Below, piece by piece: positions 6,027-22,971 of a stretch of 64,000 nucleotides of DNA. Under the pieces are notes generated by a model. It saw nothing but the letters and a program-made list of their open reading frames with translations. It made no database searches and was not told the DNA's origin. This DNA is from a virus (taxonomy: Duplodnaviria; Heunggongvirae; Uroviricota; Caudoviricetes). Position 1 is the first letter of the stretch. Every line of letters begins with the position of its first letter. A program made the position numbers and the translations under genes. Where the stretch lies: IMG/VR virus record IMGVR_UViG_3300037419_003079; one strand, 5' to 3'.

Positions 6027-6028
6027 GA

Positions 6029-6913: not shown

Positions 6914-6922
6914 GGGATAATC

Positions 6923-7396: not shown

Positions 7397-7425
7397 TGTT
7401 ATCGCCTCCTGTTATCTTATAATTG

Positions 7426-8784: not shown

Positions 8785-8815
8785 GTCTTACCTCCTTTGC
8801 TTATCTTATATTTAT

Positions 8816-8844
8816 ATTATAGTTTCCCATAGTCCGAAAGTCAA
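8816..8844 (-). promoter_or_regulatory. sigma-A consensus promoter (TTGACT-17-TATAAT)
   Basis: Reverse complement reads CCTTGACTTTCGGACTATGGGAAACTATAATATAAATA. Confidence 0.75.
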
Positions 8845-8865
8845 GGACAAATTGTAAAAAATTTC

Positions 8866-8890
8866 AAAAAAAAGAGAGGCGTTAGCCTCC
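8866..8890 (-). terminator. rho-independent terminator after SPFH gene
   Basis: GAGGC-GTTA-GCCTC stem, with plus-strand A8 giving U8 on the minus-strand RNA. Confidence 0.6.
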
Positions 8891-8895
8891 CTCAA

Positions 8896-9837: not shown

Positions 9838-10081
9838 TACCTCCGAATAGTTTTTTAATATCTTTTAACATAAACAAGATGAAGATTAAGATTGAGCCAC
9901 TGAATTGAATGGTAGTTCCATATTTAGTTAGGAAGTTATATCCTGCTAAACTAGTGTTGCTATCTTGAAGTTGCATTAAAGCTACTTTGTTGTCTATTGG
10001 TGTTGAAAAAGAATTTAGTACTACATTGAGTAATGTTATAAATACTAATCCTACTACTAATCTAATGATTGTTGATTTCAT
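9818..10081 (-). CDS. small membrane protein (possible NfeD-like partner of the SPFH protein)
   Basis: 87 aa with two TM segments. Overlaps the SPFH gene start by 20 nt. Lies 11 nt downstream of the ClpP-like gene. Confidence 0.5.
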   Translation of the reverse strand: MKSTIIRLVVGLVFITLLNVVLNSFSTPIDNKVALMQLQDSNTSLAGYNFLTKYGTTIQFSGSILIFILFMLKDIKKLFGGNANENK

Positions 10082-10092
10082 TGTTCTCCTCC

Positions 10093-10713
10093 TTATTCAA
10101 TTGCGAAATTTCCTGCTTGAACATCTTCTCTTTTCAGACGAGTAATAGCAATCTTAGATTCTACTACACCTAGCTTAATAGCCTCGTCAGTATCAAAATA
10201 CCAATCTTTGACTGTATCTTGCATATTAGCAATCTCGTCTGCACGAATATTAGTTCTTTCTAAGACAAATTTATTAACCTTGCTTCTCATAAACTTCTCT
10301 ACAGCCTCCATGCGTCTTTGGTGTTCTGTGAAAGTACCACCTTGACCATATGAAATGTCATGGAACATAAACACTGTATGTTCGTATGAATAACGCTTAT
10401 GTCCTGCTAGTAAAATTGGGATACCCATACTAGCTACCATTCCTAATCCAATAGTATGTACTGGTGTCTTACTATTTCTGATGATGTCCATCAATCCTAG
10501 ACCTGATGTTACAGAACCACCGGGAGTATTGATAGTCAAGAAGATAGGGAATTTACTTCTGTCGTGATTGTTATAAGTAGCCTTCTCTTTTGCGTCATCA
10601 ATTCGATTGATTTCTACAATCTTCTCGATAATGGCTTTTGTAGAGGTATTACTAACTTCTTCTGATAAAAATAAGTTACGGTTGATTTCGTTAACTGGAA
10701 CCTGTACTGTCAT
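10093..10713 (-). CDS. ClpP-like serine protease (paralog 2), first gene of the protease / small-membrane-protein / SPFH operon
   Basis: 206 aa. TINTPGGSVTSGLGLMD ... MVASMG (Ser) ... MFHD (His). ClpP/NfeD-N (clan SK) organisation. Confidence 0.8.
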   Translation of the reverse strand: MTVQVPVNEINRNLFLSEEVSNTSTKAIIEKIVEINRIDDAKEKATYNNHDRSKFPIFLTINTPGGSVTSGLGLMDIIRNSKTPVHTIGLGMVASMGIPILLAGHKRYSYEHTVFMFHDISYGQGGTFTEHQRRMEAVEKFMRSKVNKFVLERTNIRADEIANMQDTVKDWYFDTDEAIKLGVVESKIAITRLKREDVQAGNFAIE

Positions 10714-10745
10714 TTCAATTACCTCCTCGTTTATCTTATATTTGT

Positions 10746-10775
10746 ATTATAACTTGCTTGGATACAAAAAGTCAA
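10746..10775 (-). promoter_or_regulatory. sigma-A promoter (TTGACT-18-TATAAT)
   Basis: Reverse complement reads CCTTGACTTTTTGTATCCAAGCAAGTTATAATAC. Confidence 0.7.
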
Positions 10776-10810
10776 GGATAAATCAGAAAACTTTTTTAAT
10801 TTATATCCCT

Positions 10811-10840
10811 AAAAAAAATCGACTAGGAAATGTCCTAGTC
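10811..10840 (-). terminator. rho-independent terminator downstream of the tRNA
   Basis: GACTAGGA-CATTT-CCTAGTC stem followed by U8 on the minus-strand RNA. Confidence 0.75.
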
Positions 10841-10868
10841 TTTAAAATCGTGAAACGTTAAAGGGGTG

Positions 10869-10942
10869 TGGCACGGATTGTAAGAATCGAACTCACATCA
10901 AAGGTTTTGGAGACCTTTGTTTTACCATTAAACTAAATCCGC
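10869..10942 (-). tRNA. tRNA-Trp (anticodon CCA), 74 nt with encoded CCA
   Basis: Hand-folded from the sequence: acceptor GCGGATT/AATCCGT (G1-U72), D arm GTTT-AATGGTA-AAAC, anticodon arm AAGGT-CTCCAAA-ACCTT (U33, C34C35A36, A37), 4-nt variable loop, T arm GTGAG-TTCGATT-CTTAC, discriminator G, CCA. Confidence 0.75.
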
Positions 10943-11463
10943 ATAAGAGGGAGTGCATTAGCACTCTTGGCTCACCAACTGTTTTTATAGAGAAACAGTA
11001 AACGTATTGAGAGAGGTTTTCCGTGCCTCTCCCATTTAATCGGAGGTAGGTTGCGTGGGGAAAATCAACAAAACCCAACGCACGTTTAAGGGTATCGTTT
11101 AAAAGCACGCTTTCCTAGTTATATTATATAGCGAGTGCTAGGTCACTACCTCAGATACCCGTGAGGCAAGCATGTTTATACTCTACACTTCAAGAGATAC
11201 GTTGTAGCGATTCGAGAGGAATGACCATATTGCCGTTTATCTAGGATAAGTCCGTGTAATACAGGCAAACTACCTTGAATCGCATAATTACAGTGCTAGG
11301 CTCATACCAAGAACCAACCTAGCTTGTATTCTCCTCAACTTTTACTTAACTCGTGTCAGGTGTATCGCCTTAGATTAAGTTTTATTGGAGATTACGGTTG
11401 TCCGTTTTCAAACATAGACCTGATACAGGAGGTACGGACGGTAAAGTTTCATGTATTGTGATT
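10943..11463 (-). ncRNA. GC-rich ORF-free structured region upstream of tRNA-Trp (candidate pre-tRNA leader, additional non-canonical tRNAs, or large structured ncRNA)
   Basis: 520 nt with no convincing ORF and clearly higher GC than the flanks. Multiple long stem-loops (e.g. GTCCGT...ACGGAC at 11399-11438, GCGTGGGG...CCCAACGC at 11052-11086, GAGTGC-ATTA-GCACTC at 10951-10966, GGGTATC...GATACCC at 11090-11160). It is co-transcribed between gene 11464..11787 and the terminator at 10811-10840. Confidence 0.4.
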
Positions 11464-11787
11464 TTACTTCTTGTTAAAATAAAGAACAGTTGCATAGTAA
11501 GTAGTTGTTCCGGGAGCGATTGCATATACTTCTTCGCCTTTTTCTAAGTATAATTCGATTTCTCTAGAATTATTTCCTGCATTAATGCTCTCCACTGGAA
11601 TAAGCATTGAATTATTGTTGATGTTCTGTAGTAATTCCGTGTAATTAGGATTTTGGAAGTCGATATTAAGGATTTCTTTTCCTGCAATTCTTACAGGTTG
11701 ATTATCAACGAAGATTTTGACATATCCTCTGTCTCCAACTGCTATAACACTAGGCGTTGCATTTACTGGTTTCACTTCTACTCTCAT
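11464..11787 (-). CDS. hypothetical protein (107 aa)
   Basis: ORF with tandem promoters upstream. Confidence 0.55.
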   Translation of the reverse strand: MRVEVKPVNATPSVIAVGDRGYVKIFVDNQPVRIAGKEILNIDFQNPNYTELLQNINNNSMLIPVESINAGNNSREIELYLEKGEEVYAIAPGTTTYYATVLYFNKK

Positions 11788-11884
11788 TAAACATCTCTCC
11801 TTATTATATCTAATATAAAACGTTGCCCTCTATAAGAGGGATTGGGATATACCCTTACTGATATGTTTTTTATCAGTAATATTA

Positions 11885-11957
11885 TTATGTATTCTTATAT
11901 ATTAAGTTGTCAAGGTATCTTATAAATATATTATAACACAAGACCTTTTAAAAGTCA
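11885..11957 (-). promoter_or_regulatory. tandem sigma-A promoters (TTGACT-17-TATAAT and TTGACA-17-ACATAA)
   Basis: Reverse complement reads CCCTTGACTTTTAAAAGGTCTTGTGTTATAATATATTTATAAGATACCTTGACAACTTAATATATAAGAATACATAAT. Confidence 0.65.
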
Positions 11958-11976
11958 AGGGTTATTACGTTAGAAA

Positions 11977-12300
11977 GGAGGTTTAGCGTTGCCTCCTTCC
12001 ATGATTATTGACATATCATAGTTAGTGTCTGTATTCTATTCCATGATATACACGCCAATGTGGTAGTAACCAACACTTCGATTGGTCTTTGTTGAGAGTA
12101 GAACTATATGGTGAGAGCCTAAACCCTTCATCTCTCTGCACAATGCCCGCTACCGTCACCTTCCATTGTGTTTCCTAGTTCGTAGCTACTGAACTAATCG
12201 CCACACCTTGCGAGTATGACTTCCCTTTCGGGCATAACAGGACTAATCCCCTTCACCTGTCTGTGTCGTCCCCTTTCTATCTTTCCTATGACGACTTTCC
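11977..12300 (-). ncRNA. candidate ~300-nt GC-rich non-coding RNA transcribed from promoter 12314-12342 and ending at hairpin 11977-11996
   Basis: No ORF. GC well above local background. Perfect TTGACT-17-TATAAT promoter directly upstream on the minus strand. GGAGG-N10-CCTCC hairpin at the 3' side. Internal long hairpin TAGTTC-AGTAGCTAC-GAACTA. Confidence 0.35.
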
Positions 12301-12313
12301 TAATTACTATGTA

Positions 12314-12342
12314 ATTATAACATACTTATAATATAAAGTCAA
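12314..12342 (-). promoter_or_regulatory. sigma-A consensus promoter (TTGACT-17-TATAAT) with no ORF downstream for ~300 nt
   Basis: Reverse complement reads CCCTTGACTTTATATTATAAGTATGTTATAATTAC. Confidence 0.7.
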
Positions 12343-12348
12343 GGGTAA

Positions 12349-12633
12349 TTATCTTACGCTCTGACCTGAATGAATTTTTCTAATAGCCTCTAGTGCCTCA
12401 ATATTCTGAGGTTGATTACGCATAATCCAAAGCCTTAATTCATTATATTTTAATGCGAATTTATGTTCTAACTCTCTGTCTAGTTGCTCTTTCCAATAAT
12501 CTGCTACTGCTCTAGTTGTAAAGAAAATGTCGTGCATGGATTTGTCAGATAAATGTATGCTTTCATTTGTTTGAATGTGGTAGGCAATCTTTCTTGCGTC
12601 ATATTCCACTCTAGGGTCATACTTTCTTTTCAT
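12349..12633 (-). CDS. hypothetical protein (94 aa; start refined to ATG with AAGGAGG RBS)
   Basis: The ORF-track ORF was trimmed to the internal ATG at 12633, which has a strong RBS. No recognisable motif. Confidence 0.5.
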   Translation of the reverse strand: MKRKYDPRVEYDARKIAYHIQTNESIHLSDKSMHDIFFTTRAVADYWKEQLDRELEHKFALKYNELRLWIMRNQPQNIEALEAIRKIHSGQSVR

Positions 12634-12646
12634 GCTACATTCCTCC

Positions 12647-13165
12647 TTAGATTTTGTAGTACTTCTTAATGGATTCAATAAGTGAGTCTAAGTCAGGAGA
12701 TATACTACCTCCTGAATCTTTGATAGTTCCAACTACATAAAGGTTACGGTATGGAAATTGATTTTCTACAGCGTCCTGAGACAAAGCATGTAATTTTTTC
12801 ATGTTATCTCTACCTTGTTGGCGAATATCTGTAAATAATGCAAATATAGGTCTAGGTTTAGCACCTGTTCTTAACTGATAGTTAATATCAAAACCTGCAA
12901 ACTTACCAATCTCACATGCAACTCCTGAATCTATCTCAACTCCATCAATAACTGCTATCAAAAATTGAGAGTCTAGTAGATATTCATCGTCTCCTCTTGA
13001 GATAGTTAAACTATTAGCATATCCTGTTTTATCATTTAGTGCCTCGTTTTCTTGTGGAACATATAGTTCTAACTCAGGAAACACCAATCTTAGTTCGTTT
13101 GCTATGATAGTATTATATAGATAGTCTGCCTCACTGAATAGTCCGTTTGCTAGGTACGCCTTCAT
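12647..13165 (-). CDS. nucleoside 2-deoxyribosyltransferase-family protein (NDT/Rcl-like)
   Basis: 172 aa. N-terminus MKAYLANGLFSEADYLYN... with a conserved acidic pocket (DSGVACEIG) characteristic of NDT/DNPH1-like enzymes. Confidence 0.6.
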   Translation of the reverse strand: MKAYLANGLFSEADYLYNTIIANELRLVFPELELYVPQENEALNDKTGYANSLTISRGDDEYLLDSQFLIAVIDGVEIDSGVACEIGKFAGFDINYQLRTGAKPRPIFALFTDIRQQGRDNMKKLHALSQDAVENQFPYRNLYVVGTIKDSGGSISPDLDSLIESIKKYYKI

Positions 13166-13422
13166 TAGTCACTACCTTCTTCTGCTACATCTTCTTTCAC
13201 TACTTCTACATTTTCTTCTAGAACGATTTCTTCTTCTTTGTTTAATCGAAGAATAAATTTATCTTTATTACTCTTGCTATAATCAACTTCAAGTCCTTCT
13301 AAGTAGTTCTTTTCTAGTTGATGATTAGTTATGTGAATTGGTGCTTTGCCATTCTTTGATAGTCGTCTTATACACTCAATCAATAATAAAGTTAAGACTG
13401 CCTCTTTTGATGTTTCAGCCAT
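13165..13422 (-). CDS. hypothetical acidic protein (85 aa)
   Basis: ORF whose start ATGA overlaps the previous gene's stop. Confidence 0.5.
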   Translation of the reverse strand: MAETSKEAVLTLLLIECIRRLSKNGKAPIHITNHQLEKNYLEGLEVDYSKSNKDKFILRLNKEEEIVLEENVEVVKEDVAEEGSD

Positions 13423-13549
13423 TCATACCTTCCTCCATTTCTAAATATCTTTTAAGTTCTGATGGGTTAAATTCTTCTGAGATTCGCTTGTTAATTTCAG
13501 CCATCTCAACGTATCCTTGTGCCATTTGGTCTTTATCTATTTTTTTCAT
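13415..13549 (-). CDS. small hypothetical protein (44 aa)
   Basis: Not in the ORF track. AAGGAGATGG RBS 5 nt before the ATG at 13549. Its TGA overlaps the ATG of the next gene (translational coupling). Confidence 0.4.
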   Translation of the reverse strand: MKKIDKDQMAQGYVEMAEINKRISEEFNPSELKRYLEMEEGMNG

Positions 13550-13593
13550 TCCAACCATCTCCTTAAATTATATTTATATTATAACTTCCCTGT

Positions 13594-13619
13594 AAAAATT
13601 TGAGGGGGCGAACCCCCTC
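13594..13619 (-). terminator. hairpin terminator/attenuator between promoter 13657-13685 and first gene of its operon
   Basis: GAGGGGG-CGAA-CCCCCTC stem followed by AAAUUUUUA on the minus-strand RNA. It sits ~35 nt downstream of the predicted start site. Confidence 0.45.
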
Positions 13620-13656
13620 TGAAAGAGTAGAAATTATGTATTGATTAACTATTTAT

Positions 13657-13685
13657 ATTATACTTGAATTATAACTAAAAGTCAA
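13657..13685 (-). promoter_or_regulatory. sigma-A consensus promoter (TTGACT-17-TATAAT)
   Basis: Reverse complement reads CCTTGACTTTTAGTTATAATTCAAGTATAATATAAATAG. Confidence 0.75.
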
Positions 13686-13695
13686 GGACAAATTC

Positions 13696-14421
13696 TCAAC
13701 CTTTACCAATTCGCATAATGCTTACTTTAACATGCTTTTGTCTTCCGAACTGTTTAGCAATGCTTTCGTTTCTTACAAGAACGTCTAACTTATGTCCTCT
13801 AATAGCACCACCTTTATCTAACGCTTGTGCGTAGAATGTTTCTCCACGAGCCTCAATCTTGATAATGGAGTACATAGGAATCACATTAGGGTCTACTGCT
13901 ACAACCCTCATTCCATCTACTTTAGTGGTATTTGCTACATTGTATCCTGTCGATGTCATTCCAGTGCAACCTTCTGAACAAAAGGCTGTGTAGGCTGTCG
14001 CCTCCATATAAAGAACTCTCTTAGCTTGTTGTTGTGATTTCACCACTTTGGTTTTTCTGATATTGTTCTTTTGCCTTACCGAGGGAGATTCACTTCCATC
14101 TTTATATGTTTCAATCTTCTTCTTTAGGTTTGCGTTCTCTTTTGTAAGATTAGCAATCTTGCTGTTCATTCGTTGTGCTTCTTGTAAATGTTTTTGTTTT
14201 TCTAAATCTTTCTTTTGAAGGTCAACTTTCGCTTGGAAAAGCCTATCCTCAAGACTATCAATCTGCATGTTTAAATCTACTCTCTCTTTTTGCATATCTC
14301 TCGCATTGGTCTCGGAAATTATTGCTCCTGCTCCGAATGTTGTCAGACCTGCTAATAAAATAGCTACGGATAAGATATTCATAGACTTAGAAAAGAATTT
14401 TTTCTCCTCCATTACTATCAT
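13696..14421 (-). CDS. membrane-anchored 3D-domain protein (MltA/YabE/YuiC-like cell-wall-active domain)
   Basis: 241 aa with an N-terminal TM segment, a coiled coil, and a C-terminal 3D domain (YMEATAYTAF ... VVAVDPNVIP ... LDKGGAIRGHKLDVL). Confidence 0.65.
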   Translation of the reverse strand: MIVMEEKKFFSKSMNILSVAILLAGLTTFGAGAIISETNARDMQKERVDLNMQIDSLEDRLFQAKVDLQKKDLEKQKHLQEAQRMNSKIANLTKENANLKKKIETYKDGSESPSVRQKNNIRKTKVVKSQQQAKRVLYMEATAYTAFCSEGCTGMTSTGYNVANTTKVDGMRVVAVDPNVIPMYSIIKIEARGETFYAQALDKGGAIRGHKLDVLVRNESIAKQFGRQKHVKVSIMRIGKG

Positions 14422-14443
14422 CTCCTTTGCATATTATAATTGT

Positions 14444-14472
14444 ATTATACACGCCCTTCCATATCTTGTCAA
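14444..14472 (-). promoter_or_regulatory. sigma-A consensus promoter (TTGACA-17-TATAAT)
   Basis: Reverse complement reads CCCCTTGACAAGATATGGAAGGGCGTGTATAATACAATTATAAT. Confidence 0.75.
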
Positions 14473-14486
14473 GGGGTGTCCCTGAG

Positions 14487-14516
14487 TAAAATAAAAGAGA
14501 GGCTAAATGCCCCTCT
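14487..14516 (-). terminator. weak terminator after MBL-fold gene
   Basis: AGAGG-N9-CCTCT stem followed by a U-rich tract (CUUUUAUUUUAC) on the minus-strand RNA. Confidence 0.3.
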
Positions 14517-15294
14517 ATTTAACTTCAAAACTGTAAGTCTCTCTTGGTAGTGCAATTCTCATAAATGAATCTTTAACCTCTAAGTAATGTTCTTCTAGGT
14601 CATCTCCGTAGTGCATTATGAAAATATTTCGTTTATACTTGTTTGGCAATGATTTAAGTTCTTCAAGTGAAGCGTGCACCTTACCATCATAATCAAACAT
14701 TTGGCAATCATGGAAAATAGCTTGTGCACCGTCTTTAACTGCCATCTTAATAAATTCTTCGTTAAACAATGAATCAGATGTGTAAACTATGTAATCGTGT
14801 TCTGAGATAATTAAGCCATATGACTTTTTCTTAGGGATATGCTCAGTGCTATAGACTGAAATCATGCAATCGTTAAAGAAGAAGTATTGGTCTCTATCGT
14901 TAACAATTTCATATGTAAAGTAATCATCAAATTTCATTTGTCTATCTAATTCGCCTTCTACCATAGTTCCTTTAAGGACTTTATTCCACAAATCATTTTT
15001 TAAATCTACATGAGGGAAAATAAGGTGTGGCTTTTTCTTTAAAACATATCGTCCAAAGAATCCTGCCTCCTCTAGTCCGTATACATGGTCTCCGTGGAGG
15101 TGAGTAATAAAAATAGCGTCAATATCTGACCATGAGAACTCTGATTTAAATAAATCATCAGGTGTTGTTCTTCCACAGTCAATCATCATATTCTTTTTTA
15201 CTTCTCCATTTGTTACAGTTAACACTGCACTGTTATTGCCAAAGTTCTTAGCAAATGCACTTCCTGTTCCTAGAAAAGTTAAGTCTATTTTCAT
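14515..15294 (-). CDS. metallo-beta-lactamase-fold hydrolase (RNase Z / cyclic-nucleotide phosphodiesterase-like; Apyc1-like candidate)
   Basis: 259 aa. HxHxDH motif (ITHLHGDHVYG) plus downstream His/Asp ligands. Last gene of its operon. Confidence 0.8.
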   Translation of the reverse strand: MKIDLTFLGTGSAFAKNFGNNSAVLTVTNGEVKKNMMIDCGRTTPDDLFKSEFSWSDIDAIFITHLHGDHVYGLEEAGFFGRYVLKKKPHLIFPHVDLKNDLWNKVLKGTMVEGELDRQMKFDDYFTYEIVNDRDQYFFFNDCMISVYSTEHIPKKKSYGLIISEHDYIVYTSDSLFNEEFIKMAVKDGAQAIFHDCQMFDYDGKVHASLEELKSLPNKYKRNIFIMHYGDDLEEHYLEVKDSFMRIALPRETYSFEVK

Positions 15295-17409: not shown

Positions 17410-17465
17410 AGCAACAAGTAGCGAAGGTTGCTTGTCCCACAAACTAAATGAGGAGGAATGTCACA

Positions 17466-18392
17466 ATGACAATTACCTACGAAAGAGGAAAATGGATTGA
17501 ACTAGGAAAACAGTTGGAGGTAGTAGTTGCCAAAAATAATGAACTTCCTAAGCCAAGAAAAAAATCTTTAACTGAGTTATTTAAAGACTTTGCTAGAGAA
17601 CATAACACAACTTATAGTTCTGCTCAATTTTATTATTACAACGATATTAAGCCAAAGGTTGATAGAAATGAATTGGTTTACAACCCTAGGTCATATGATG
17701 ATGAACTAAACAACTATATGAACAACACTCAAGTAGACCCTATATTTAGAAACACAAAAAACGTTAGAAATGTTCACAAGATTGGAACTATCGTACAAGG
17801 AGAAATCGTTGGTCTAACAGACTTTGGTGCTTTTCTTAGAACAGAACAAGGATTTGAAGGACTTATACACATATCTCAAATTACAGAAAAAGATTTCGTT
17901 ACGCTTCCTGAGGACTATTTTTATATTGGTGAAAAAGTTAAAGCTAAAGTCATGAGATATGACGGAAACAAACTTAATTTATCAACCAAGGCAACAGGAG
18001 GAAAAGAAAAGATAAATCCTGTTTTCAAAGATTTAAGTTTAAAGAAAACTGAAATACAAGAAACTAAGAAAGTAACTCCGAAAGTAATACAAAAACCAAA
18101 AGAAGTTGTACATGAGACCAAAGTAGAACCTAAAGTTATAGAGGACAATACAAAAGTAGTTCCAATTAGTACATCTAACAATGATAAAGATAACATAATC
18201 AACTTTATTAAGAGATATTCTGATAATAACGTATCTCAAAAGGCACTTGGAGATTTAGACGACTTAATCTCTGAATATGGAGTTTTCCAAACAACTATAT
18301 CACTAATGGAAACTGTTCGTGATTTAGATATTTCTTCTTTCATTACCGAGATGACAAAAGAAAGGCTTGAAGGTGAATATCTTAGGCAATAA
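17466..18392 (+). CDS. S1 RNA-binding-domain protein with Lys-rich C-terminal extension
   Basis: Start refined to the ATG at 17466 (GAGGAGGA RBS). S1/OB core GTIVQGEIVGLTDFGAFLRT ... GLIHISQI ... GEKVKAKV. Confidence 0.75.
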   Translation: MTITYERGKWIELGKQLEVVVAKNNELPKPRKKSLTELFKDFAREHNTTYSSAQFYYYNDIKPKVDRNELVYNPRSYDDELNNYMNNTQVDPIFRNTKNVRNVHKIGTIVQGEIVGLTDFGAFLRTEQGFEGLIHISQITEKDFVTLPEDYFYIGEKVKAKVMRYDGNKLNLSTKATGGKEKINPVFKDLSLKKTEIQETKKVTPKVIQKPKEVVHETKVEPKVIEDNTKVVPISTSNNDKDNIINFIKRYSDNNVSQKALGDLDDLISEYGVFQTTISLMETVRDLDISSFITEMTKERLEGEYLRQ

Positions 18393-18651
18393 TGAATTGA
18401 AAGAAAGATATTCTTTAACTTCACACATAGTCAAACGGTGGAGACAACGTATAGAAAAAAATATTACCTACGATGAAATCAGAGAGAAAGTAGATGAAAT
18501 CATAGATAATGGTATTAAGAGAACTGTAGACGACAAGCATTATCGGATATGTTATAAAGACATCTGTGTTGTGTTTATGAAATTAAGTCCGCTACATTCA
18601 TTGGCAAAGACTGTTTATATTAAGAGTGAGGAGGAATTTGGGTGCTGTTAG
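18367..18651 (+). CDS. hypothetical protein (about 85-94 aa, start uncertain)
   Basis: Only TTG/GTG in-frame starts. Followed by a terminator hairpin. Confidence 0.35.
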   Translation: MKVNILGNNELKERYSLTSHIVKRWRQRIEKNITYDEIREKVDEIIDNGIKRTVDDKHYRICYKDICVVFMKLSPLHSLAKTVYIKSEEEFGCC

Positions 18652-18668
18652 CACTCTTTTTCTTTTCC
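18640..18668 (+). terminator. rho-independent terminator
   Basis: GGTGC-TGTTA-GCACTC stem followed by TTTTTCTTTTCC. Confidence 0.55.
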
Positions 18669-18860
18669 CTAAATTTATAATACACTTATATTTTAACATA
18701 GTCAAGAGTATCTGCAAAAAAACATGCTTTGAATCGTAAATATTTAATAAAAAGAATTATTTAGTATTTATATATCTTTTAGTAATTACTAAGTAATTAT
18801 ATTATATTTATTTATTATTTATTAATATATATATTTATATATATAACTGTCCAAAGTTGA
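18669..18860. repeat. AT-rich region with (TA)n/TATTTA simple repeats and a 6-bp inverted repeat ACTGTC-N7-GACAGT
   Basis: More than 85% A+T over ~190 bp. ATATATATTTATATATATAACTGTCCAAAGTTGACAGTCC lies immediately upstream of the sigma-factor gene. Confidence 0.6.
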
Positions 18861-18901
18861 CAGTCCCCAAAATTGACCCTATAAAAAGGAGGTGCGTTAA
18901 T

Positions 18902-19558
18902 ATGTCAAGAATTGAAAAAGAAGAACATTTAAAAGGACTTATAAATATTGTGCAAAACTCTGATAATGGATATGAGAAAGAAAACGCCATGATGGAGGTA
19001 CTTAATAAATTTGAACCTTTCAGAAGGTCTTTAACGAAGAAATTCGCAGGAAAAGGAGTAGACTTCGATGATGTGTGTCAAGTAATTGATTTAAAGCTAA
19101 TTGAAGCTATGTATGATTATGATGAAAAACTAGATTCATCTGCTATTAGGCATATCACATCTAAGGCAAGGAATGGAGTATTTAATTTCTACAAGAAAGA
19201 AATGAACTACTTTAAAGAAGACCGTAAAACTATTAGCATTGACCAATCATTTTACAATATTTCTCACAACGGATACAAATTAACTATTGATGATTCATCT
19301 TGGATTGAGGCTTATTTTGAAGAAGAATTTGACGAAGATAAAATCATAGATAAGATTATGTTAGAACAAGGATTGACAAATTTAACAGAACATCAAAGAG
19401 AATTAATACATATGTACTATTGGGCAGATATGACCCAAGAGGAGATTGCAGAAGAACTACAGATACACCAAGCAAATGTATCAAGGGCAACAAAAAGAGG
19501 AGTCAAGAGACTCAAAGAGAATCTTAACCCCTTGGGTGAGCAGTCCGATAAGCTTTAG
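18902..19558 (+). CDS. phage-encoded sigma-70-family sigma factor (sporulation/ECF-like size)
   Basis: Start refined to the ATG at 18902 (AGGAGG RBS). Region-4 HTH LTEHQRELIHMYYWADMTQEEIAEELQIHQANVSRATKRGVKRLKE, with a region-2-like helix upstream. Confidence 0.75.
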   Translation: MSRIEKEEHLKGLINIVQNSDNGYEKENAMMEVLNKFEPFRRSLTKKFAGKGVDFDDVCQVIDLKLIEAMYDYDEKLDSSAIRHITSKARNGVFNFYKKEMNYFKEDRKTISIDQSFYNISHNGYKLTIDDSSWIEAYFEEEFDEDKIIDKIMLEQGLTNLTEHQRELIHMYYWADMTQEEIAEELQIHQANVSRATKRGVKRLKENLNPLGEQSDKL

Positions 19559-20393
19559 ACATCTGCTCATTAGCAATAGTTGTATAAACGGTAGTTGTGT
19601 TTATGTCTGCATGACCTAGTAGTTCTTGTATATATCTAATATCAGCACCGTTAGCATGTAAGTGAGTAGCGTAACTATGTCTAAACATGTGTGGGTGAAC
19701 TTCACCATCTGAATACTTATAAACTATTCTACGAGCGTTTCTAGTCGTCATAGGAAGACTAGGGGTTCTTCTACTAGCAAACACATAAGGACTGTTGTAG
19801 TTCCTAGTTTCAAGGTGTCTTGCTATAGCATTTAGAGCAGGATTATTAATAGGTACTAGTCGTTCCTTATTTCCTTTTCCAAGCAACTTAACAGTTCTAT
19901 TTTCTAAGTCTATGTCGTCAACTTTAATAATCACTAATTCACCTACACGACAACCTACTCCATACAATGTTTCCATTATCGCTCTATCTTGCTCATTATC
20001 AATGGAGTCCAATATTCTAGAAGTTTCATTTACTGTCATTACATTAGGTAGTTTCTTGGCTATCTTGGCATTATCAATATCTAGAGCGTCATTATGCTCT
20101 ATCACTCCTTCTTTCTTTAAAAATGTCATGAAAGAGCGAATAGCAGATAATTTTCGTCTTCTAGTTGTAGGTGCTAAAGAATTAATGTCGGCAAGGAACT
20201 TTCTGATTGTTGATTTATTAAGTTGCTCTATATTCACAATAGAACTAGATTCAAAGTATTGATTTAAATCTTTTTTATAACTGATTACCGTGTTATTAGA
20301 TAAATTCTTTTCAACACTCATGTAGTTTAAGAAATCATTTAAATAGTTATCCATATTTATCAGCCTCCGATTTGTTTTGTTCCTATAACACAA
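19524..20393 (-). CDS. tyrosine recombinase, XerC/XerD-like (no N-terminal arm-binding domain)
   Basis: 289 aa. C-terminal catalytic box HMFRHSYATHLHANGADIRYIQELLGHADINTTTVYT (R..H..R..Y). Convergent with, and overlapping by 35 nt, the sigma-factor gene. Confidence 0.9.
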   Translation of the reverse strand: MCYRNKTNRRLINMDNYLNDFLNYMSVEKNLSNNTVISYKKDLNQYFESSSIVNIEQLNKSTIRKFLADINSLAPTTRRRKLSAIRSFMTFLKKEGVIEHNDALDIDNAKIAKKLPNVMTVNETSRILDSIDNEQDRAIMETLYGVGCRVGELVIIKVDDIDLENRTVKLLGKGNKERLVPINNPALNAIARHLETRNYNSPYVFASRRTPSLPMTTRNARRIVYKYSDGEVHPHMFRHSYATHLHANGADIRYIQELLGHADINTTTVYTTIANEQMSKAYRTAHPRG

Positions 20394-20422
20394 AGTTTAC
20401 CAATTAATTCCTATAATGTCAA
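20393..20422 (-). promoter_or_regulatory. probable sigma-A promoter for the recombinase (TTGACA-17-TAAACT)
   Basis: Reverse complement reads TCCCTTGACATTATAGGAATTAATTGGTAAACT. Shares the GTCAAGG motif of the early promoters. Confidence 0.45.
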
Positions 20423-20493
20423 GGGAGAATAGCATACTTTTCCATGTATTAATAAGCCTTAGTATTAGATAGTACCCCTATCGGCAGTTCTCT

Positions 20494-20552
20494 TTTACAT
20501 TTTCCCCTATTTTTGGCTATTGGCTATTTGGCTACCCCCCCCCTGCCTTATA
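20494..20552. repeat. GGCTAT direct repeats (x3), C9 homopolymer and inverted ATAGCC copy upstream of terS
   Basis: TTTTTGGCTATTGGCTATTTGGCTACCCCCCCCTGCCTTATAGCCATTC. Confidence 0.6.
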
Positions 20553-20582
20553 GCCATTCTTTTTAAAAGGAGAGTGATGTAG

Positions 20583-21257
20583 ATGGCAAGAAGAAAACTC
20601 AATGATGAAGAATTAGAGAAAATTTCAAATAAAGAGTGGAAAAAAACGCCTATATTTACAAGTGATGAAAAATTAGCAAATAGAGCCAAAAATTTAACAG
20701 GTCCAAAGACCGTGGAAGGGAAGAAGAAGTCATTGGCAAATTTACAAGTTGGTAGAAACAGTTCGGATTCTCCTACCAATCTTAGGCATGGTGGGTATAT
20801 CCGTAAGATTTTAAATGAAGATGAACAAGAGTACTATTTCATGCGTATGGAGATTTACTATAAGGATTACGATATTAATGGTTCGGCTGATGAAATTATA
20901 TTACATCAGGTTTTGATGGAGGAAGTTATCTTAATGCGTTTATACACTAAGCAAGCAAACAATCCTTCAACAGATATAGAAAGACCATTAAATGATTGTA
21001 CTCGTAGATTGCGTACAGCACTAGAAGACCTAGGTGCATTAAGAAAGCAACGATTAAAACAAGACGATAAAGTAGCAAGTCTGAATATCGCTACAATTGC
21101 TCAAGCATTTGCTCGTGAATTAAATCAAGGAAGTGTAGAGCAAGAACTACTCAAATTAAGACAAGAGGAAGAAGAATTTGAGAAGTCAAGAACAAAAGAC
21201 ATTAACGATAGATATGTAATCGTTGAGGAAGATGAAGATGGAGAACAATCAGAGTAG
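20583..21257 (+). CDS. putative terminase small subunit
   Basis: 224 aa. Located immediately upstream of, and overlapping, the large terminase gene. GGAGAG RBS. Assigned by position; no diagnostic motif. Confidence 0.5.
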   Translation: MARRKLNDEELEKISNKEWKKTPIFTSDEKLANRAKNLTGPKTVEGKKKSLANLQVGRNSSDSPTNLRHGGYIRKILNEDEQEYYFMRMEIYYKDYDINGSADEIILHQVLMEEVILMRLYTKQANNPSTDIERPLNDCTRRLRTALEDLGALRKQRLKQDDKVASLNIATIAQAFARELNQGSVEQELLKLRQEEEEFEKSRTKDINDRYVIVEEDEDGEQSE

Positions 21258-22905
21258 TATAAATATGAGCGTTCAGAACAACGCAGTAGAGCAGGGTGCT
21301 AATGTAAACACAGAACATATGGAGATGATGAAAATCTTCGTAGATAACCCTGATATTGCGGCTAGTAGATTACTAGTTCGTAATGACAAGCCATTGAGAC
21401 TAGCTGTTCACCAACGTTTGATTATTAGAGGACTATGGAAACATCAGTTTAATCTATTAATCCTTACTCGTGGTGGAGGAAAAACATTCTTACTGGCTCT
21501 TTATTGCGTTCTTAAAACAATGCTATTTCCTCGTGAAAAAGCAGTGGTAGCGTCTTCTTCCTATCGTCAAGCACAATTCACATTTGACGAGATAATAAAG
21601 TTTTATGAGGAATCACCTTTACTACGACAGGCTACTACAAAGCCTCCTACGAAAGGTCCTAACTCATGTGAAATGCACTTAGAAAATGGTTCTAAGATTA
21701 TATGTTATCCGTTGGGTGACGGTCAAAAGATTCGTGGTGCTCGTGCTAATACATTGGTTATGGACGAGGTAGCACAGATACCTTCCGATATTATCAACCT
21801 AGTAATCCTACCTATGATGAACACACGACAAGACCCGTTCGATACATCAGGTCGTAAAAACCATTTAGTTATGGCTAGTTCTGCGTATTTCCAATTTAAC
21901 CATCTATATGATAAGTATCTATCATACAAAGATAGGGGTAATCCTAGACATGAAGATTATGACGATAACTACGGTCTGCATGTTTTTTCTGTATACGACA
22001 TGCCTGAGGGTTGGATGGACCCTGCAATTATCAAGGAGGCAAGACAACAACTATCTGAGATACAGTTCCAAATGGAGTACGAATGTTTATTCCCTGCTGA
22101 GTCAGATGGATTCTTCCCTGCTAAATTAATGTATGGTGCTAGAAAACAATCTGTATTATTAGAGTTAGAAGGTAGTAAAGGTTCAGAATATGTATTCGGA
22201 ATTGACCCTGCTCGAACAGGAGATAATTTCGCATTGGTAGTTTTAAAACTAGGTAACCCAAATAAAATAGTAGCGTCTTACTCATTAAATAGAAATACAT
22301 TCCCTGAAATGCACGAGTTTATAAGAAGAAAAATTCGTGAATATAATAAAAATGGTGGAAAAGTAGTTAGGTTACATATGGATAATGGTGGTGGAGGACA
22401 CACTATTAAAGATTTACTAGCAGAAGAGTATGCTTGGTTTGACGGAGAGGCAGGGGTATGGAGAACTGACCCTGCTATTATTGACATGGACGATGAAGAA
22501 CAACAATACCTAACAGGTGAGCGAATACTTAAAATGCAAGTATTTAGTGCACCATCTATCAACTCAATGAACTATGACCTAAGAGCAGACCTAGAGAAAA
22601 ACAGAGTAATACTACCAACTCAACCACCTACTGAGGAAGGTGATATAGGTATGCTTTATAGAGATATTTTTGATGAAATAGAGGATATGATTAAAGAGAC
22701 TATGACTATTGTTCCAACACCTTTAAAATCAGGAATGTTGCATTTTGACACACCAAAACAAAAAATGAAGAAGGATAGATACTCTGCTTTCTTATTATGT
22801 TGTCAAGGTGCTAGAGAATTGCAGAGAGATTGGGGAGGTCCACCAGTTAAGACATTAGCTAGGGGCTTTGCTAGGAACTCATTCATGTCGGGTAGTGGAC
22901 TATAA
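21223..22905 (+). CDS. terminase large subunit
   Basis: 560 aa. Walker A-like LTRGGGKT, Walker B DEVAQIP, and a C-terminal RNase-H-like nuclease region. Confidence 0.85.
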   Translation: MRKMKMENNQSSINMSVQNNAVEQGANVNTEHMEMMKIFVDNPDIAASRLLVRNDKPLRLAVHQRLIIRGLWKHQFNLLILTRGGGKTFLLALYCVLKTMLFPREKAVVASSSYRQAQFTFDEIIKFYEESPLLRQATTKPPTKGPNSCEMHLENGSKIICYPLGDGQKIRGARANTLVMDEVAQIPSDIINLVILPMMNTRQDPFDTSGRKNHLVMASSAYFQFNHLYDKYLSYKDRGNPRHEDYDDNYGLHVFSVYDMPEGWMDPAIIKEARQQLSEIQFQMEYECLFPAESDGFFPAKLMYGARKQSVLLELEGSKGSEYVFGIDPARTGDNFALVVLKLGNPNKIVASYSLNRNTFPEMHEFIRRKIREYNKNGGKVVRLHMDNGGGGHTIKDLLAEEYAWFDGEAGVWRTDPAIIDMDDEEQQYLTGERILKMQVFSAPSINSMNYDLRADLEKNRVILPTQPPTEEGDIGMLYRDIFDEIEDMIKETMTIVPTPLKSGMLHFDTPKQKMKKDRYSAFLLCCQGARELQRDWGGPPVKTLARGFARNSFMSGSGL

Positions 22906-22971
22906 AACAATAGTGCAAACTTTTCGTAGTTGAATCGTAAATATATTAATATGAAGGGAGTGAGCCACTGA

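What the first reader, a model, noticed from the sequence alone, without database searches (positions are those of the whole stretch)
18902..20393. Phage sigma factor gene overlapping convergently (35 bp) with an early-promoter-driven Xer-like tyrosine recombinase
The sigma factor (region 2/4 visible) presumably drives the long late operon that starts ~200 bp further on. Its 3' end overlaps the 3' end of a 289-aa tyrosine recombinase that lacks an N-terminal arm-binding domain, so it is Xer/resolvase-like and not a lambda-Int-like integrase. The recombinase carries one of the GTCAAGG-type early promoters. No repressor or lysogeny module is evident in the window. Convergent overlapping transcription could make expression of sigma and recombinase mutually antagonistic. 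The recombinase may resolve concatemers or dimers, or invert DNA, instead of integrating the phage.
Basis: partly seen in the sequence, partly recalled or inferred. Interest (0 to 1): 0.55.

Follow-up and report, generated by a model that had tools for sequence, protein, structure and literature searches.

The report
Sigma gene overlapping Xer-like recombinase gene
In a new group of about 160-kb phages of spore-forming bacteria, a phage sigma-factor gene and a Xer-type DNA recombinase gene face each other and share their last 35 bases, an arrangement kept across the whole group that probably restricts the recombinase to the non-lytic or early state; the genes themselves are of ordinary, known kinds.

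Summary
A 218-aa sigma-70-family gene (18902-19558, +) and a Xer-type tyrosine recombinase gene (19524-20354, -) overlap by 35 bp at their 3' ends. The recombinase is 276 aa from its ATG, not the 289 aa of the maximal ORF. The same sigma, recombinase, terS, terL order occurs in ten related metagenomic phage genomes. Nine keep exactly 35 bp of overlap and one has 71 bp, down to 43% recombinase identity.

The recombinase has a conserved host sigma-A-type promoter. Its terminator hairpin contains its own stop codon and lies inside the sigma ORF. The sigma gene has a different, phage-specific promoter-like motif. It has no terminator-like element until a hairpin just before terS, so its transcript should be antisense to the whole recombinase gene. 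The recombinase promoter also sits back to back with a second phage-specific motif upstream of terS.

No recombination site, repressor or prophage copy was found. Outside the window the phage carries ParM-like, type IV secretion-like, RecA and DnaE genes.

Best reading, inferred and not shown: the recombinase keeps a circular extrachromosomal genome monomeric, and late transcription silences it. The components are known; the conserved architecture is a new variant. Interest is moderate.

The parts
18640..18666 (+). Intrinsic-terminator-like hairpin plus T run that ends the upstream operon (S1-domain protein gene and orf94), so the sigma gene has its own control region
   Evidence: Conserved in relatives.
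18713..18742 (+). Class-2 phage-specific promoter-like motif TGCAAA-N18-TAAATA, about 160 nt upstream of the sigma start codon
   Evidence: Three plus-strand copies in the window against 0.04 expected. Conserved upstream of sigma and in the terL/portal gap in L003, L006, L011 and L037. Promoter function is inferred.
18838..18880 (+). Two copies of CCAAARTTGA directly upstream of the sigma ribosome-binding site. Conserved and sometimes triplicated in relatives. Role unknown. The apparent TTGACA...TATAAA here is not a conserved sigma-A promoter.
   Evidence: Alignment.
18902..19558 (+). Sigma-70-family factor gene, 218 aa, with regions 2 and 4. Region 4 is closest to the SigB/F/G type. A 12-aa C-terminal tail is encoded in the overlap.
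19524..19558 (.). 35-bp tail-to-tail overlap of the two ORFs. It encodes recombinase ...AYRTAHPRG* on one strand and sigma ...NPLGEQSDKL* on the other.
19488..19531 (-). Terminator-like hairpin of the recombinase transcript (19531-19499, contains the TAA stop) followed by TCTTTTTGTTG. It lies inside the sigma ORF.
   Evidence: Predicted stability -15 to -18 kcal/mol in all 7 close genomes. z = -2.7. G-C / G-U / A-U changes in the stem. First terminator-like element on this strand.
19524..20354 (-). Xer-type tyrosine recombinase gene, 276 aa, with catalytic residues R136, K163, H222, R225, H248, Y257
20380..20416 (.). Two direct copies of TTCCTATAA (20380-20388 and 20408-20416) flanking the -10 element of the recombinase promoter. 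A related element (TTATNNGRAA on the recombinase strand) is kept just downstream of the -10 in all relatives. Candidate operator or recombinase-binding sites.
   Evidence: Function not tested.
20394..20424 (-). Host sigma-A-type promoter of the recombinase: CC-TTGACA (20422-20417), 17 nt spacer, TGg-TAAACT (20402-20394)
   Evidence: Conserved in close and distant relatives.
20431..20457 (+). Class-1 phage-specific promoter-like motif AGCATA-N15-ATAAGC. It is back to back with the recombinase promoter, with the two -35 elements 8 bp apart.
   Evidence: Second copy upstream of a 1364-aa tail gene at L031:15060. Conserved upstream of terS in relatives. 0.04 expected per window. Promoter function is inferred.
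20521..20564 (+). Conserved hairpin (20521-20556) with a C-rich loop that includes a length-variable poly-C tract (20535-20543), followed by TTCTTTTT and then the terS ribosome-binding site. It is the only terminator-like element on the plus strand between the sigma start and terS.
   Evidence: Arms co-vary (L004 TTTAGA/TCTAAA; L037 TGACTAT/ATAGTCA). Poly-C is C7 or C9 in different assemblies.
20583..21257 (+). First gene of the long rightward structural operon. Putative small terminase, assigned by position only.
   Evidence: No family hit. Followed by TerL at 21223-22905 (Terminase_6N 1.2e-8).

Best explanation
The locus is a conserved junction between the maintenance or early programme and the late programme of a novel clade of about 150-175-kb siphovirus-like phages of spore-forming Bacillales.

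Shown by sequence and comparison:
- A Xer-type, catalytically complete 276-aa tyrosine recombinase is read leftward from a host sigma-A-type promoter.
- Its terminator-like hairpin, which contains its own stop codon, lies inside the 3' end of a convergent sigma-factor gene.
- The sigma gene is preceded by a different, phage-specific promoter-like motif. It has no terminator-like element until a hairpin just before terS, so its transcript should run antisense across the whole recombinase gene and its promoter.
- The recombinase promoter is back to back with another phage-specific promoter-like motif that heads the terS/terL/structural operon.

Inferred:
- The recombinase is made when only host RNA polymerase holoenzyme is available, that is on entry and/or in a plasmid-like carrier state. 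It keeps the circular phage genome monomeric by dimer or multimer resolution, and possibly by cyclisation.
- Once the phage-specific promoters fire, transcription through the sigma gene and polymerase occupancy of the adjacent late promoter shut the recombinase off. Multimers or concatemers can then accumulate for packaging.
- The 35-bp overlap itself is a by-product: the sigma tail is overprinted on the conserved Xer C-terminus (AHPRG). It has become fixed because it places the recombinase terminator inside the sigma gene.
For: Anatomy.

Conservation: the gene order and the overlap are kept in 10 genomes down to 43% recombinase, 40-50% sigma and 71% TerL identity.

Recombinase promoter: of the same CCTTGAC class as the 12 early promoters and conserved in relatives.

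Terminators: the recombinase terminator hairpin is conserved with compensatory changes. The only plus-strand terminator-like element after the sigma gene is at 20521-20564.

Phage-specific motifs: they occur only on the plus strand, in front of sigma, portal, terS and a tail gene.

Resolution rather than integration:
- No relative in GTDB species representatives or in PLSDB above 28%.
- All contigs inspected run through the locus without a bacterial junction.
- The same phage carries a ParM/Alp7A-like gene plus a small downstream ORF and a type IV secretion-like cluster. A close relative also carries Replic_Relax, RecA, ERF, RusA and DnaE.
- ParM-like and recombinase homologues have matching longest-contig lengths (166,133; 173,589; 152,731; 150,437 bp).
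- This gene set matches what is described for Bacillus plasmid prophages (PMC8026635) and Tyroviruses (PMC9703825). In both, Xer-like recombinases are proposed to act as dimer resolvases.
Against: - No recombination site was identified. There is no dif-like site, and lox-like inverted repeats in the window are no more frequent than chance.
- There are no RNA data, so every promoter, terminator and timing statement is a sequence inference.
- The hairpin before terS lacks a clear U tract in L037 and is absent in L025. It also lies in the leader of the proposed late transcript, so it cannot be a strong unconditional terminator.
- The class-1 motif has only two copies.
- ParM-like proteins are also common in Herelleviridae-type Bacillus myoviruses such as Spock and Eldridge, which to my knowledge are lytic. 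They therefore do not prove a plasmid state.
- No isolate genome or plasmid carrying this clade was found, so a carrier state is undocumented.
- About 30 kb of the genome was never seen and could hold a repressor, an att site or further recombinases.
Confidence: 0.4

Rival explanations
1. The recombinase is a conventional arm-less integrase, and the phage is temperate by chromosomal integration. Its hosts are simply missing from genome collections. The attP site lies in the recombinase-terS intergenic region or elsewhere.
For: - PHROGs places it in the 'integrase' families (phrog_1, 2.9e-58).
- Arm-less integrases exist. From my own knowledge Brujita Int is one; the PDB entry 5vfz (labelled Gp33), which I take to be it, is among the hits.
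- Distant relatives by TerL include an integrated Basilisk-like prophage in B. licheniformis that carries a tyrosine recombinase next to a serine recombinase.
- Accessory genes such as TerC and a TerF-like vWA protein in a relative suggest a carrier state.
Against: - No integrated relative in 185,579 species-representative genomes, using either one TerL or a TerL profile.
- No contig with a phage-bacterium junction at this locus.
- The gene sits between the sigma gene and terS in every genome, with no excisionase or repressor beside it.
- No att-like repeat was found.
- The contig breaks seen at 20415-20554 are explained by poly-C length heterogeneity and not by an att site.
Confidence: 0.2
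2. The overlap has no regulatory meaning. It is genome compaction, frozen because any indel would damage both C-termini. The two genes are expressed independently of each other.
For: - The overlapped sigma tail is poorly conserved, whereas the recombinase AHPRG end is conserved. This looks like simple overprinting.
- One genome has 71 bp of overlap instead of 35.
- Sigma codons partly force the hairpin and T run inside the sigma gene (ATKRGVKKL).
Against: - The stem shows G-C, G-U and A-U alternatives. In L006 a change that alters both proteins is compensated by a synonymous change in the partner arm.
- The promoter classes on the two strands differ, and the recombinase promoter abuts a phage-specific motif in every genome.
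- No plus-strand terminator separates the sigma gene from the recombinase gene.
Confidence: 0.3
3. The recombinase is a DNA invertase that flips a phage segment, for example a promoter or a tail-fibre cassette.
For: - There are weak NCBIfam hits to tyrosine-type invertases (2.4e-13, far below the cut-off).
- A 38-nt inverted-repeat pair flanks a 91-aa ORF about 9 kb left of the window (L029 19613-20007).
Against: - No long inverted repeats bracket any segment of the window above chance.
- No alternative-orientation contigs were seen.
- The best similarity is full-length to XerD, XerC and XerA.
Confidence: 0.05
4. The sigma factor is not the late-gene factor. It redirects host RNA polymerase to host genes, for example sporulation genes, as described for SigF/G-like phage sigmas.
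For: - Region 4 is closest to the SigB/F/G family (TIGR02980 3.8e-20, spore_sigF 1.3e-16).
- The host is a spore former, since the phage carries a SASP gene.
Against: - All scores are far below the SigF/G cut-offs, and there is no match to any cultured-phage sigma.
- The gene is fixed next to the packaging and structural operon in all relatives.
- Two phage-specific promoter-like motifs with a SigF-like -35 element (GCATA / TGCAAA) precede late genes.
Confidence: 0.15

Closest known systems
XerC/XerD and the single-recombinase Xer systems (archaeal XerA, XerS, XerH)
   Same: Same two-domain architecture without an arm-binding domain. Full-length alignment to XerD and XerA (PDB 1a0p, 4a8e). Same catalytic residues R-K-H-R-H-Y and the HPR(G/A) C-terminus.
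   Different: Scores 254 and 251 bits, below the XerD and XerC equivalog cut-offs of 330 and 335. About 35-40% identical to cellular Xer proteins. Phage-borne and a single copy. No dif-like site found. No evidence for an FtsK-type activator, although a TrwB-type coupling-protein-like ATPase is encoded elsewhere.
Xer-like recombinases of Bacillus and Clostridium plasmid prophages (c-st, vB_BtS_B83, pBtic235-like group) and of Tyroviruses (Tsamsa/Thrax)
   Same: Large siphovirus-type genomes. Tape-measure-sized protein of about 3,000 aa. ParM-like gene plus a small downstream gene. Type IV secretion-like and replication-relaxation genes. DnaE-type polymerase. Xer-like recombinase proposed as dimer resolvase (PMC8026635; PMC9703825).
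   Different: Sequence relationship is remote: TerL 23-29% identical, and the closest capsid protein is that of phage G at 29%. Only one recombinase was seen in about 135 kb, against three in Tyroviruses. In none of those phages is the recombinase described as overlapping a sigma gene next to terS. In Thrax3 there is neither a recombinase nor a sigma gene beside terS.
P1 Cre/loxP
   Same: Functional analogy only. A phage-plasmid recombinase that cyclises and monomerises the genome, encoded near the packaging functions.
   Different: Different subfamily. No lox-like 13-8-13 site found. P1 has no convergent sigma gene.
Cluster J Bacillus phages (Slash, Staley, Basilisk)
   Same: Nearest cultured relatives by TerL (29%). 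They encode XerC/D-like recombinases and sigma factors. In Staley the recombinase gene lies next to a sigma gene and opposite a large P-loop NTPase gene.
   Different: In Staley the recombinase and sigma genes are on the same strand, do not overlap and lie far from the terminase genes. The recombinase is only 28% identical. The function there is also unknown and was only annotated as 'consistent with a temperate lifestyle' (PMC3853053).
Convergent-transcription switches (lambda oop/cII, coliphage 186 pR/pL, lambda sib control of int)
   Same: Opposed promoters whose transcripts overlap, so that one programme interferes with the other. This includes control of a recombinase by the 3' structure of its mRNA. 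The comparison rests on my own knowledge.
   Different: Here the partner is a sigma-factor gene, the overlap includes coding sequence of both genes, and the terminator of one gene is built into the ORF of the other. No experimental evidence exists.

Membership tests
Tyrosine site-specific recombinases | Catalytic residues Arg-Lys-His-Arg-His/Trp-Tyr in a Phage_integrase-fold C-terminal domain | tested here: met
   PF00589 gives 131 bits against a cut-off of 27. R136, K163, H222, R225, H248 and Y257 align with the XerD catalytic residues.
XerD / XerC (cellular equivalogs) | Score at or above the NCBIfam equivalog cut-off (TIGR02225 329.6; TIGR02224 335.15) | tested here: not met
   254.2 and 250.6 bits, with full-length alignment.
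Xer systems in general | A cognate site of about 28-31 bp (two roughly 11-bp arms around a 6-8 bp spacer) on the replicon it resolves | tested here: inconclusive
   No dif-like match: the best is 9 of 28 mismatches. Near-perfect 11-(6-8)-11 inverted repeats are no more frequent than in shuffles. About 100 kb of the genome lies outside the window and imperfect sites would be missed.
Lambda-Int-type phage integrases | N-terminal arm-binding domain, plus attP with arm sites and an excisionase | tested here: not met
   The protein is 276 aa and is fully covered by the SAM-like core-binding and catalytic domains. No neighbouring Xis-like gene.
Temperate integrating phage | Integrated copies flanked by attL and attR in host genomes | tested here: not met
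   No relative in 185,579 species-representative genomes. This is limited by pattern-based retrieval and by the use of representatives only.
Phage-plasmid (extrachromosomal prophage) | Partition system and plasmid-type replication or maintenance genes on a phage genome | tested here: met
   A ParM/Alp7A-like gene plus a small downstream ORF and a type IV secretion-like cluster occur in the same phage. Replic_Relax occurs in a close relative. Caveat: ParM-like genes also occur in Herelleviridae-type Bacillus myoviruses, which to my knowledge are lytic.
Phage-plasmid (extrachromosomal prophage) | Observed as a circular plasmid in a host | not testable with these tools
   The best PLSDB TerL match is 28% identical. 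No isolate is known.
Sigma-70 family | Regions 2 and 4 | tested here: met
   Sigma70_r4 gives 45.4 bits against a cut-off of 24.1. Sigma70_r2 gives 23.3 bits against 24, which is borderline. TIGR02937 gives 81 bits against 42.9.
SigF/SigG/SigB subfamily | NCBIfam subfamily or equivalog cut-offs (234-457 bits) | tested here: not met
   Best score is 72.6 bits, mostly from region 4.
Phage late sigma factor | A cognate promoter motif in front of late genes, and transcription from it | tested here: inconclusive
   Two plus-strand motif classes lie in front of late genes. Which factor reads them is unknown.
Intrinsic terminator (recombinase 3' end; leader before terS) | Stable hairpin directly followed by a U tract | tested here: met
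   The terS-side element lacks the U tract in L037 and is absent in L025. Termination itself was not measured.

The most novel reading that the evidence does not exclude
This is a clade-wide, hard-wired toggle. The only recombinase of a new group of about 160-kb phage-plasmids, which also carry type IV secretion-like genes, is embedded antisense in the 3' untranslated region of the sigma-factor gene and shares a divergent promoter region with the packaging operon. As a result, genome monomerisation (maintenance state) and late transcription with concatemer packaging (lytic state) exclude each other at the level of RNA polymerase traffic. The S1-domain RNA-binding protein encoded just upstream and the conserved leader hairpin with its length-variable poly-C loop could add an antitermination or phase-variable layer.
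Probability: 0.2. Interest if true: 0.65.

Novelty: new variant of a known kind. Interest (0 to 1): 0.45.

Why it matters
Xer-like recombinases are annotated in many large Bacillus and Clostridium phages and are routinely read as 'integrase, therefore temperate', without any evidence on their role or control. This locus offers a testable regulatory layout that has been kept for a long evolutionary time. It has a host-promoter-driven recombinase, a terminator built into the opposing sigma ORF, full antisense coverage by the sigma transcript, and a promoter region shared with the packaging operon.

If the layout works as proposed, it would show how a phage-plasmid separates replicon maintenance from lytic packaging. 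It would also give a defined system (one recombinase, one sigma, three promoter classes) for study in an uncultured clade that combines phage, plasmid-partition and conjugation-like genes.

Tried and rejected
1. Contig ends at window 20415, 20541 and 20554 as a physical genome end, terminal repeat or att site. Rejected. The 100.5-kb contig that starts at 20415 carries C7 instead of C9, and 20415-20541 is exactly 127 nt. From my own knowledge, 127 is the largest default k-mer of metaSPAdes; the assembler actually used is not known. The breaks therefore come from poly-C length heterogeneity.

2. Rejected. The spacer ranges from about 6 to 15 nt by hand-read inverted-repeat arms, or 4 to 13 nt as predicted loops, between phages whose recombinases are 63-67% identical. 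The inner arms change but stay complementary. The element is missing in L025. It behaves as a hairpin.

3. Search for dif-like (B. subtilis, E. coli) and lox-like sites in the window. Nothing above chance.

4. TTGACA...TATAAA directly upstream of the sigma gene as a sigma-A promoter. Rejected. It is not conserved, and a transcript from it would start inside the ribosome-binding site. The conserved feature there is a CCAAARTTGA repeat.

5. The eight minus-strand CCTTGACC copies inside late genes as antisense promoters. Rejected, because none has a -10 element.

6. The 17-nt identity ATAGCCATTCTTTTTAA at 16996 and 20550. The 16996 copy has no hairpin or other context, lies inside a coding region, and was treated as chance.

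7. Two scans of GTDB species-representative genomes and one PLSDB search for prophage or plasmid copies. None found.

8. A metagenome scan for orientation variants of the 38-nt inverted repeat in L029. It returned only one unrelated contig.

9. Thrax3, Staley and Basilisk checked for the same gene arrangement. Not present.

None found.
Full report
**Observation**

The window contains a plus-strand ORF from ATG 18902 (preceded by AAGGAGG) to TAG 19558. It also contains a minus-strand ORF whose stop codon occupies 19524-19526. The plus-strand product, 218 aa, is a sigma-70-family protein. Pfam Sigma70_r4 gives 5.6e-12. Sigma70_r2 gives 5.6e-5, just below its gathering score. NCBIfam TIGR02937 gives 81 bits against a cut-off of 42.9, and PHROGs places it in 'RNA polymerase sigma factor' families.

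The minus-strand product is a tyrosine recombinase, with Phage_integrase at 4.7e-38 and the SAM-like N-terminal domain at 7e-17. The two ORFs share 19524-19558, which is 35 bp. Because both limits are stop codons, the overlap is not an annotation choice.

One correction is needed. The 289-aa ORF from TTG 20393 is the maximal ORF. The likely start is ATG 20354 behind GGAGG, giving 276 aa. This matches the identical database protein P0001 and nearly all homologues. The TTG lies upstream of the transcription start predicted from the conserved promoter.

**The genome it belongs to**

The window has no DNA match and only remote protein matches among cultured phages. TerL is 29% identical to Bacillus Slash/Staley/Basilisk and 23% to the Tsamsa-like phage Thrax3. 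The closest capsid protein is that of phage G at 29%. The sigma has no match at all.

Related sequences are metagenomic. IMG/VR and JGI/Logan/ENA contigs reach 126-174 kb, and the identical recombinase lies on a contig of 166,133 bp. One relative sits on a contig binned with a Psychrobacillus metagenome-assembled genome. A SASP gene just left of the window points to a spore-forming host.

The window has three parts:
- A minus-strand early block (1-17.3 kb) with thymidylate synthase, DHFR, thymidine and thymidylate kinases, two ClpP homologues and an Apyc1-like protein.
- A short plus-strand unit: an S1-domain protein gene, orf94 and the sigma gene.
- After the lone minus-strand recombinase gene, a plus-strand operon running from terS and terL to the tail genes. 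It includes ORFs of 3,089 and 2,850 aa.

**Conservation**

In every related genome that covers the region, the order sigma, recombinase (convergent), terS, terL is kept. I recomputed the stop codons. The overlap is exactly 35 bp in nine genomes: the window, L003, L004, L005, L006, L008, L011, L037 and L025. It is 71 bp in L023, whose recombinase carries nine extra C-terminal residues. These genomes span 43-73% recombinase identity, 40-73% sigma identity and 71-85% TerL identity.

Within the overlap the recombinase end is conserved (...AHPRG*, the Xer-type C-terminus). The sigma tail is only loosely conserved (NPLGE plus acidic residues). The sigma tail therefore looks overprinted on the recombinase end.

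**The recombinase**

It aligns end to end with the XerD and XerC models, at 254 and 251 bits. These scores are below the equivalog cut-offs of 330 and 335. It also aligns to the solved structures of Pyrococcus XerA (3.7e-43) and E. coli XerD (4.2e-37). All catalytic residues are present: R136, K163, H222, R225, H248 and Y257. There is no room for an arm-binding domain. Cellular XerC/XerD proteins are only about 35-40% identical.

The protein is therefore Xer-like in fold and chemistry, but it is not a member of the cellular XerC or XerD equivalogs. From my own knowledge, lack of an arm domain does not exclude an integrase: arm-less integrases such as Brujita Int exist. The PDB entry 5vfz (labelled Gp33), which I take to be that protein, appears among the weaker PDB hits.

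**Signals around the two genes**

1. *Recombinase promoter.* On the minus strand, CC-TTGACA (20422-20417), 17 nt, then TGg-TAAACT (20402-20394). It is conserved in close relatives, and an equivalent TTGAC(A/G)-17-TAATAT / TGATAAAAT promoter is found in the distant ones. It belongs to the CCTTGAC class. That heptamer occurs 24 times against 4.4 expected. Twelve minus-strand copies in the early block carry near-perfect TATAAT at a spacing of 17-18 nt. The recombinase copy is the only one outside that block and has the weakest -10 element. Two direct TTCCTATAA repeats flank its -10 element, and a related element just downstream of the -10 is kept in all relatives. This could be an operator or a recombinase-binding site. 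It was not tested.

2. *Recombinase terminator.* Immediately after, and including, the recombinase stop codon there is a hairpin followed by a T run on the minus strand (19531-19499, then TCTTTTTGTTG). It folds at -15 to -18 kcal/mol in all seven close genomes, with z = -2.7 in the window. One stem position appears as G-C, G-U or A-U in different genomes. In L006 the stem change alters both proteins and is matched by a synonymous change in the opposite arm. It is the first terminator-like element downstream of the recombinase start on that strand. It lies inside the sigma ORF.

3. *No terminator after sigma.* On the plus strand there is no terminator-like element between the sigma start and 20557. 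A sigma transcript should therefore run antisense through the whole recombinase gene and its promoter.

4. *Sigma control region.* The sigma gene is separated from the upstream operon by a terminator at 18640-18666. It is preceded by a conserved motif, TGCAAA-N18-TAAATA (18713-18742). The same motif recurs on the plus strand in the terL/portal gap (22914) and at 32859. It is conserved at both syntenic positions in L003, L006, L011 and L037. The window has 3 copies against 0.04 expected.

5. *Second motif, upstream of terS.* A second plus-strand motif, AGCATA-N15-ATAAGC (20431-20457), lies 8 bp from the -35 element of the recombinase promoter, pointing the other way towards terS. It is conserved upstream of terS in relatives. 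It recurs with the same spacing in front of a 1,364-aa tail gene just beyond the window (L031:15060). The -35-like halves of both motifs resemble the SigF-type -35 element, and region 4 of the phage sigma is closest to the SigB/F/G family. Which factor reads which motif is not known.

6. *Hairpin before terS.* Between the class-1 motif and the terS ribosome-binding site lies a hairpin (20521-20556) followed by TTCTTTTT. Its outer arms (TGGCTAT/ATAGCCA) are conserved. The inner arms change but stay complementary. L037 has the double change TGACTAT/ATAGTCA. The loop varies from 4 to 13 nt in the predicted folds (the spacer is about 6-15 nt by hand-read arms). The U tract is weak in L037, and the element is absent in L025. 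Variable spacing with maintained pairing argues for an RNA hairpin. It argues against a recombinase core site or a dimeric operator.

**What was looked for and not found**

- No dif-like site, and no 11-(6-8)-11 inverted repeat above the shuffled expectation.
- No long inverted repeats bracketing a window segment.
- No second tyrosine recombinase in about 135 kb of clade sequence.
- No relative in GTDB species-representative genomes by single TerL or by TerL profile.
- No PLSDB plasmid closer than 28% TerL identity. That best hit is in fact an integrated Basilisk-like prophage that has a serine recombinase as well as a tyrosine recombinase.

Several contigs end at 20415, 20541 and 20554, which at first suggested a genome end or an att site. 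The 100.5-kb contig that starts at 20415 has C7 where the window has C9, and 20415-20541 is exactly 127 nt. From my own knowledge, 127 is the largest default k-mer of metaSPAdes; the assembler actually used is not known. The breaks therefore reflect poly-C length heterogeneity in the hairpin loop.

**Genome context outside the window**

I walked along a 158-kb relative (TerL 83% identical). It encodes RecA, DnaB, DnaG, a DnaE-type polymerase, a PD-(D/E)XK nuclease, class II ribonucleotide reductase, ERF and RusA. It also encodes the following:
- an actin-like ParM/Alp7A protein with a small overlapping downstream ORF;
- a type IV secretion-like cluster (VirB6/TrbL-like, PrgI/VirB3-like, a VirB4-like ATPase and a TrwB-type coupling-protein-like ATPase);
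- a Replic_Relax protein;
- TerC and TerF-like proteins.

The window's own phage has the ParM-like gene (P0123, 82% identical) and the same type IV secretion-like cluster. These lie on contigs from the same samples as the window fragments. ParM-like homologues have the same longest-contig lengths as the recombinase homologues: 166,133; 173,589; 152,731; and 150,437 bp.

This gene set closely parallels what is published for Bacillus plasmid prophages (PMC8026635) and for Tyroviruses (PMC9703825). The shared features are genome size (160-170 kb), a tape measure of about 3,000 aa, ParM plus an RHH-type gene, a type IV secretion protein, a replication-relaxation protein, and Xer-like recombinases proposed as dimer resolvases. 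The sequences themselves are only remotely related. One caveat applies. ParM-like genes are also widespread in Herelleviridae-type Bacillus myoviruses, which to my knowledge are lytic. They do not prove a plasmid state.

**Interpretation**

The shown facts are the anatomy, its conservation, the two promoter classes on opposite strands, and the positions of the terminator-like hairpins.

The inference I consider most likely has three parts:
- Host sigma-A RNA polymerase makes the recombinase on entry and/or in a plasmid-like carrier state.
- The recombinase keeps the circular genome monomeric. This need would be sharpened by the phage's own RecA and ERF.
- Once the phage-specific promoters fire, read-through from the sigma gene and polymerase occupancy of the abutting late promoter silence the recombinase, so that multimers can be packaged.

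Joint confidence in this reading is about 0.4. The rivals are a conventional arm-less integrase (0.2), a neutral frozen overlap with no cross-regulation (0.3, not exclusive of either recombinase function), an invertase (0.05), and a sigma aimed at host genes rather than late phage genes (0.15).

**Comparison with what is known, and novelty**

Phage sigma factors, Xer-like recombinases on large Firmicute phages and phage-plasmids, and convergent-transcription switches are all known. Nothing here is a new kind of component.

What I did not find described in the papers read is this specific architecture, conserved across the clade. Its features are a recombinase terminator built into the sigma ORF, full antisense coverage of the recombinase gene by the sigma transcription unit, and a promoter region shared with the packaging operon. 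Nor is it present in Thrax3, Staley or Basilisk.

I rate it a new variant of a known kind, with moderate interest (0.45). The clade itself may be of more interest than the overlap: an uncultured group of about 160-kb phages that combine ParM-like, type IV secretion-like and relaxase-like genes.

Noticed in passing
window 20535-20543: The poly-C tract in the loop of the hairpin upstream of terS differs in length between assemblies (C9 in the window, C7 in the 100.5-kb contig L034). It explains several contig breaks. The cause could be real slippage or phase variation, or a sequencing artefact.
   Followed up: partly
window 18713-18742, 22914-22943, 32859-32888: A conserved plus-strand motif TGCAAA-N18-TAAATA(T) occurs in front of the sigma gene, in front of the portal gene and at 32.9 kb. 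It is a phage-specific promoter class distinct from the early CCTTGAC class and from the AGCATA-N15-ATAAGC motif.
   Followed up: partly
window 18677-18705 (minus strand): A sigma-A-like promoter (TTGACT-17-TATTAT) points leftward, straight into the terminator and the 3' end of orf94. It is conserved in six relatives. It could produce an antisense or small RNA.
   Followed up: no
window 17448-18392: A 314-aa protein with a single S1 RNA-binding domain is encoded just upstream of the sigma gene and is conserved with it. It is a possible post-transcriptional or antitermination partner.
   Followed up: no
L053 (same phage) 5035-15261; L049/L052/L058 (158-kb relative): A ParM/Alp7A-like gene with a small downstream ORF lies next to a type IV secretion-like cluster (TrbL/VirB6-like, PrgI/VirB3-like, VirB4-like ATPase, TrwB-type coupling-protein-like ATPase). 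The relative also has a Replic_Relax protein, TerC and a TerF-like vWA protein. These are plasmid- and conjugation-type genes on a phage genome.
   Followed up: partly
L043 13606-14685; L044 11141-14914; L047 15755-17124: The relative encodes a full-length RecA, a DnaE-type polymerase III alpha subunit, ERF and RusA. This is an unusually complete set of recombination and replication genes.
   Followed up: no
L029 19613-19650 and 19970-20007 (about 9 kb left of the window start): A 38-nt inverted-repeat pair (84% complementary) flanks a 91-aa ORF. It adjoins a 2.2-kb gene-free, A-rich repeat region (L029 17451-19674). The pair could be convergent promoters or operators, or an invertible segment.
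   Followed up: partly
L015 560-760: One relative with 80% TerL identity carries a much more divergent recombinase (39% identical) at the same position. It also has a near-perfect TTCTGATAA-8-TTATCAGAA inverted repeat over the -10 element of the recombinase promoter. This suggests allele replacement together with a cognate site or operator.
   Followed up: no
window 52053-53487: About 1.4 kb of imperfect 30-nt (10-aa) repeats lie inside the 2,850-aa tail-associated gene, whose product has PA14 and F5/8-type-C domains.
   Followed up: no
window 14515-15294; 10093-10713 and 6238-6855; 10869-10942: The early block carries an Apyc1-like anti-Pycsar / metallo-beta-lactamase-fold gene, two ClpP homologues and a tRNA-Trp gene. 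A SASP gene lies just beyond the left end of the window (L029 11792-11980).
   Followed up: no
L037 1-3588: In the contig binned with a Psychrobacillus metagenome-assembled genome, the TerL region is called as several separate ORFs of 170, 377 and 530 aa. This could reflect an intron, intein or homing-endonuclease insertion, or an assembly problem.
   Followed up: no
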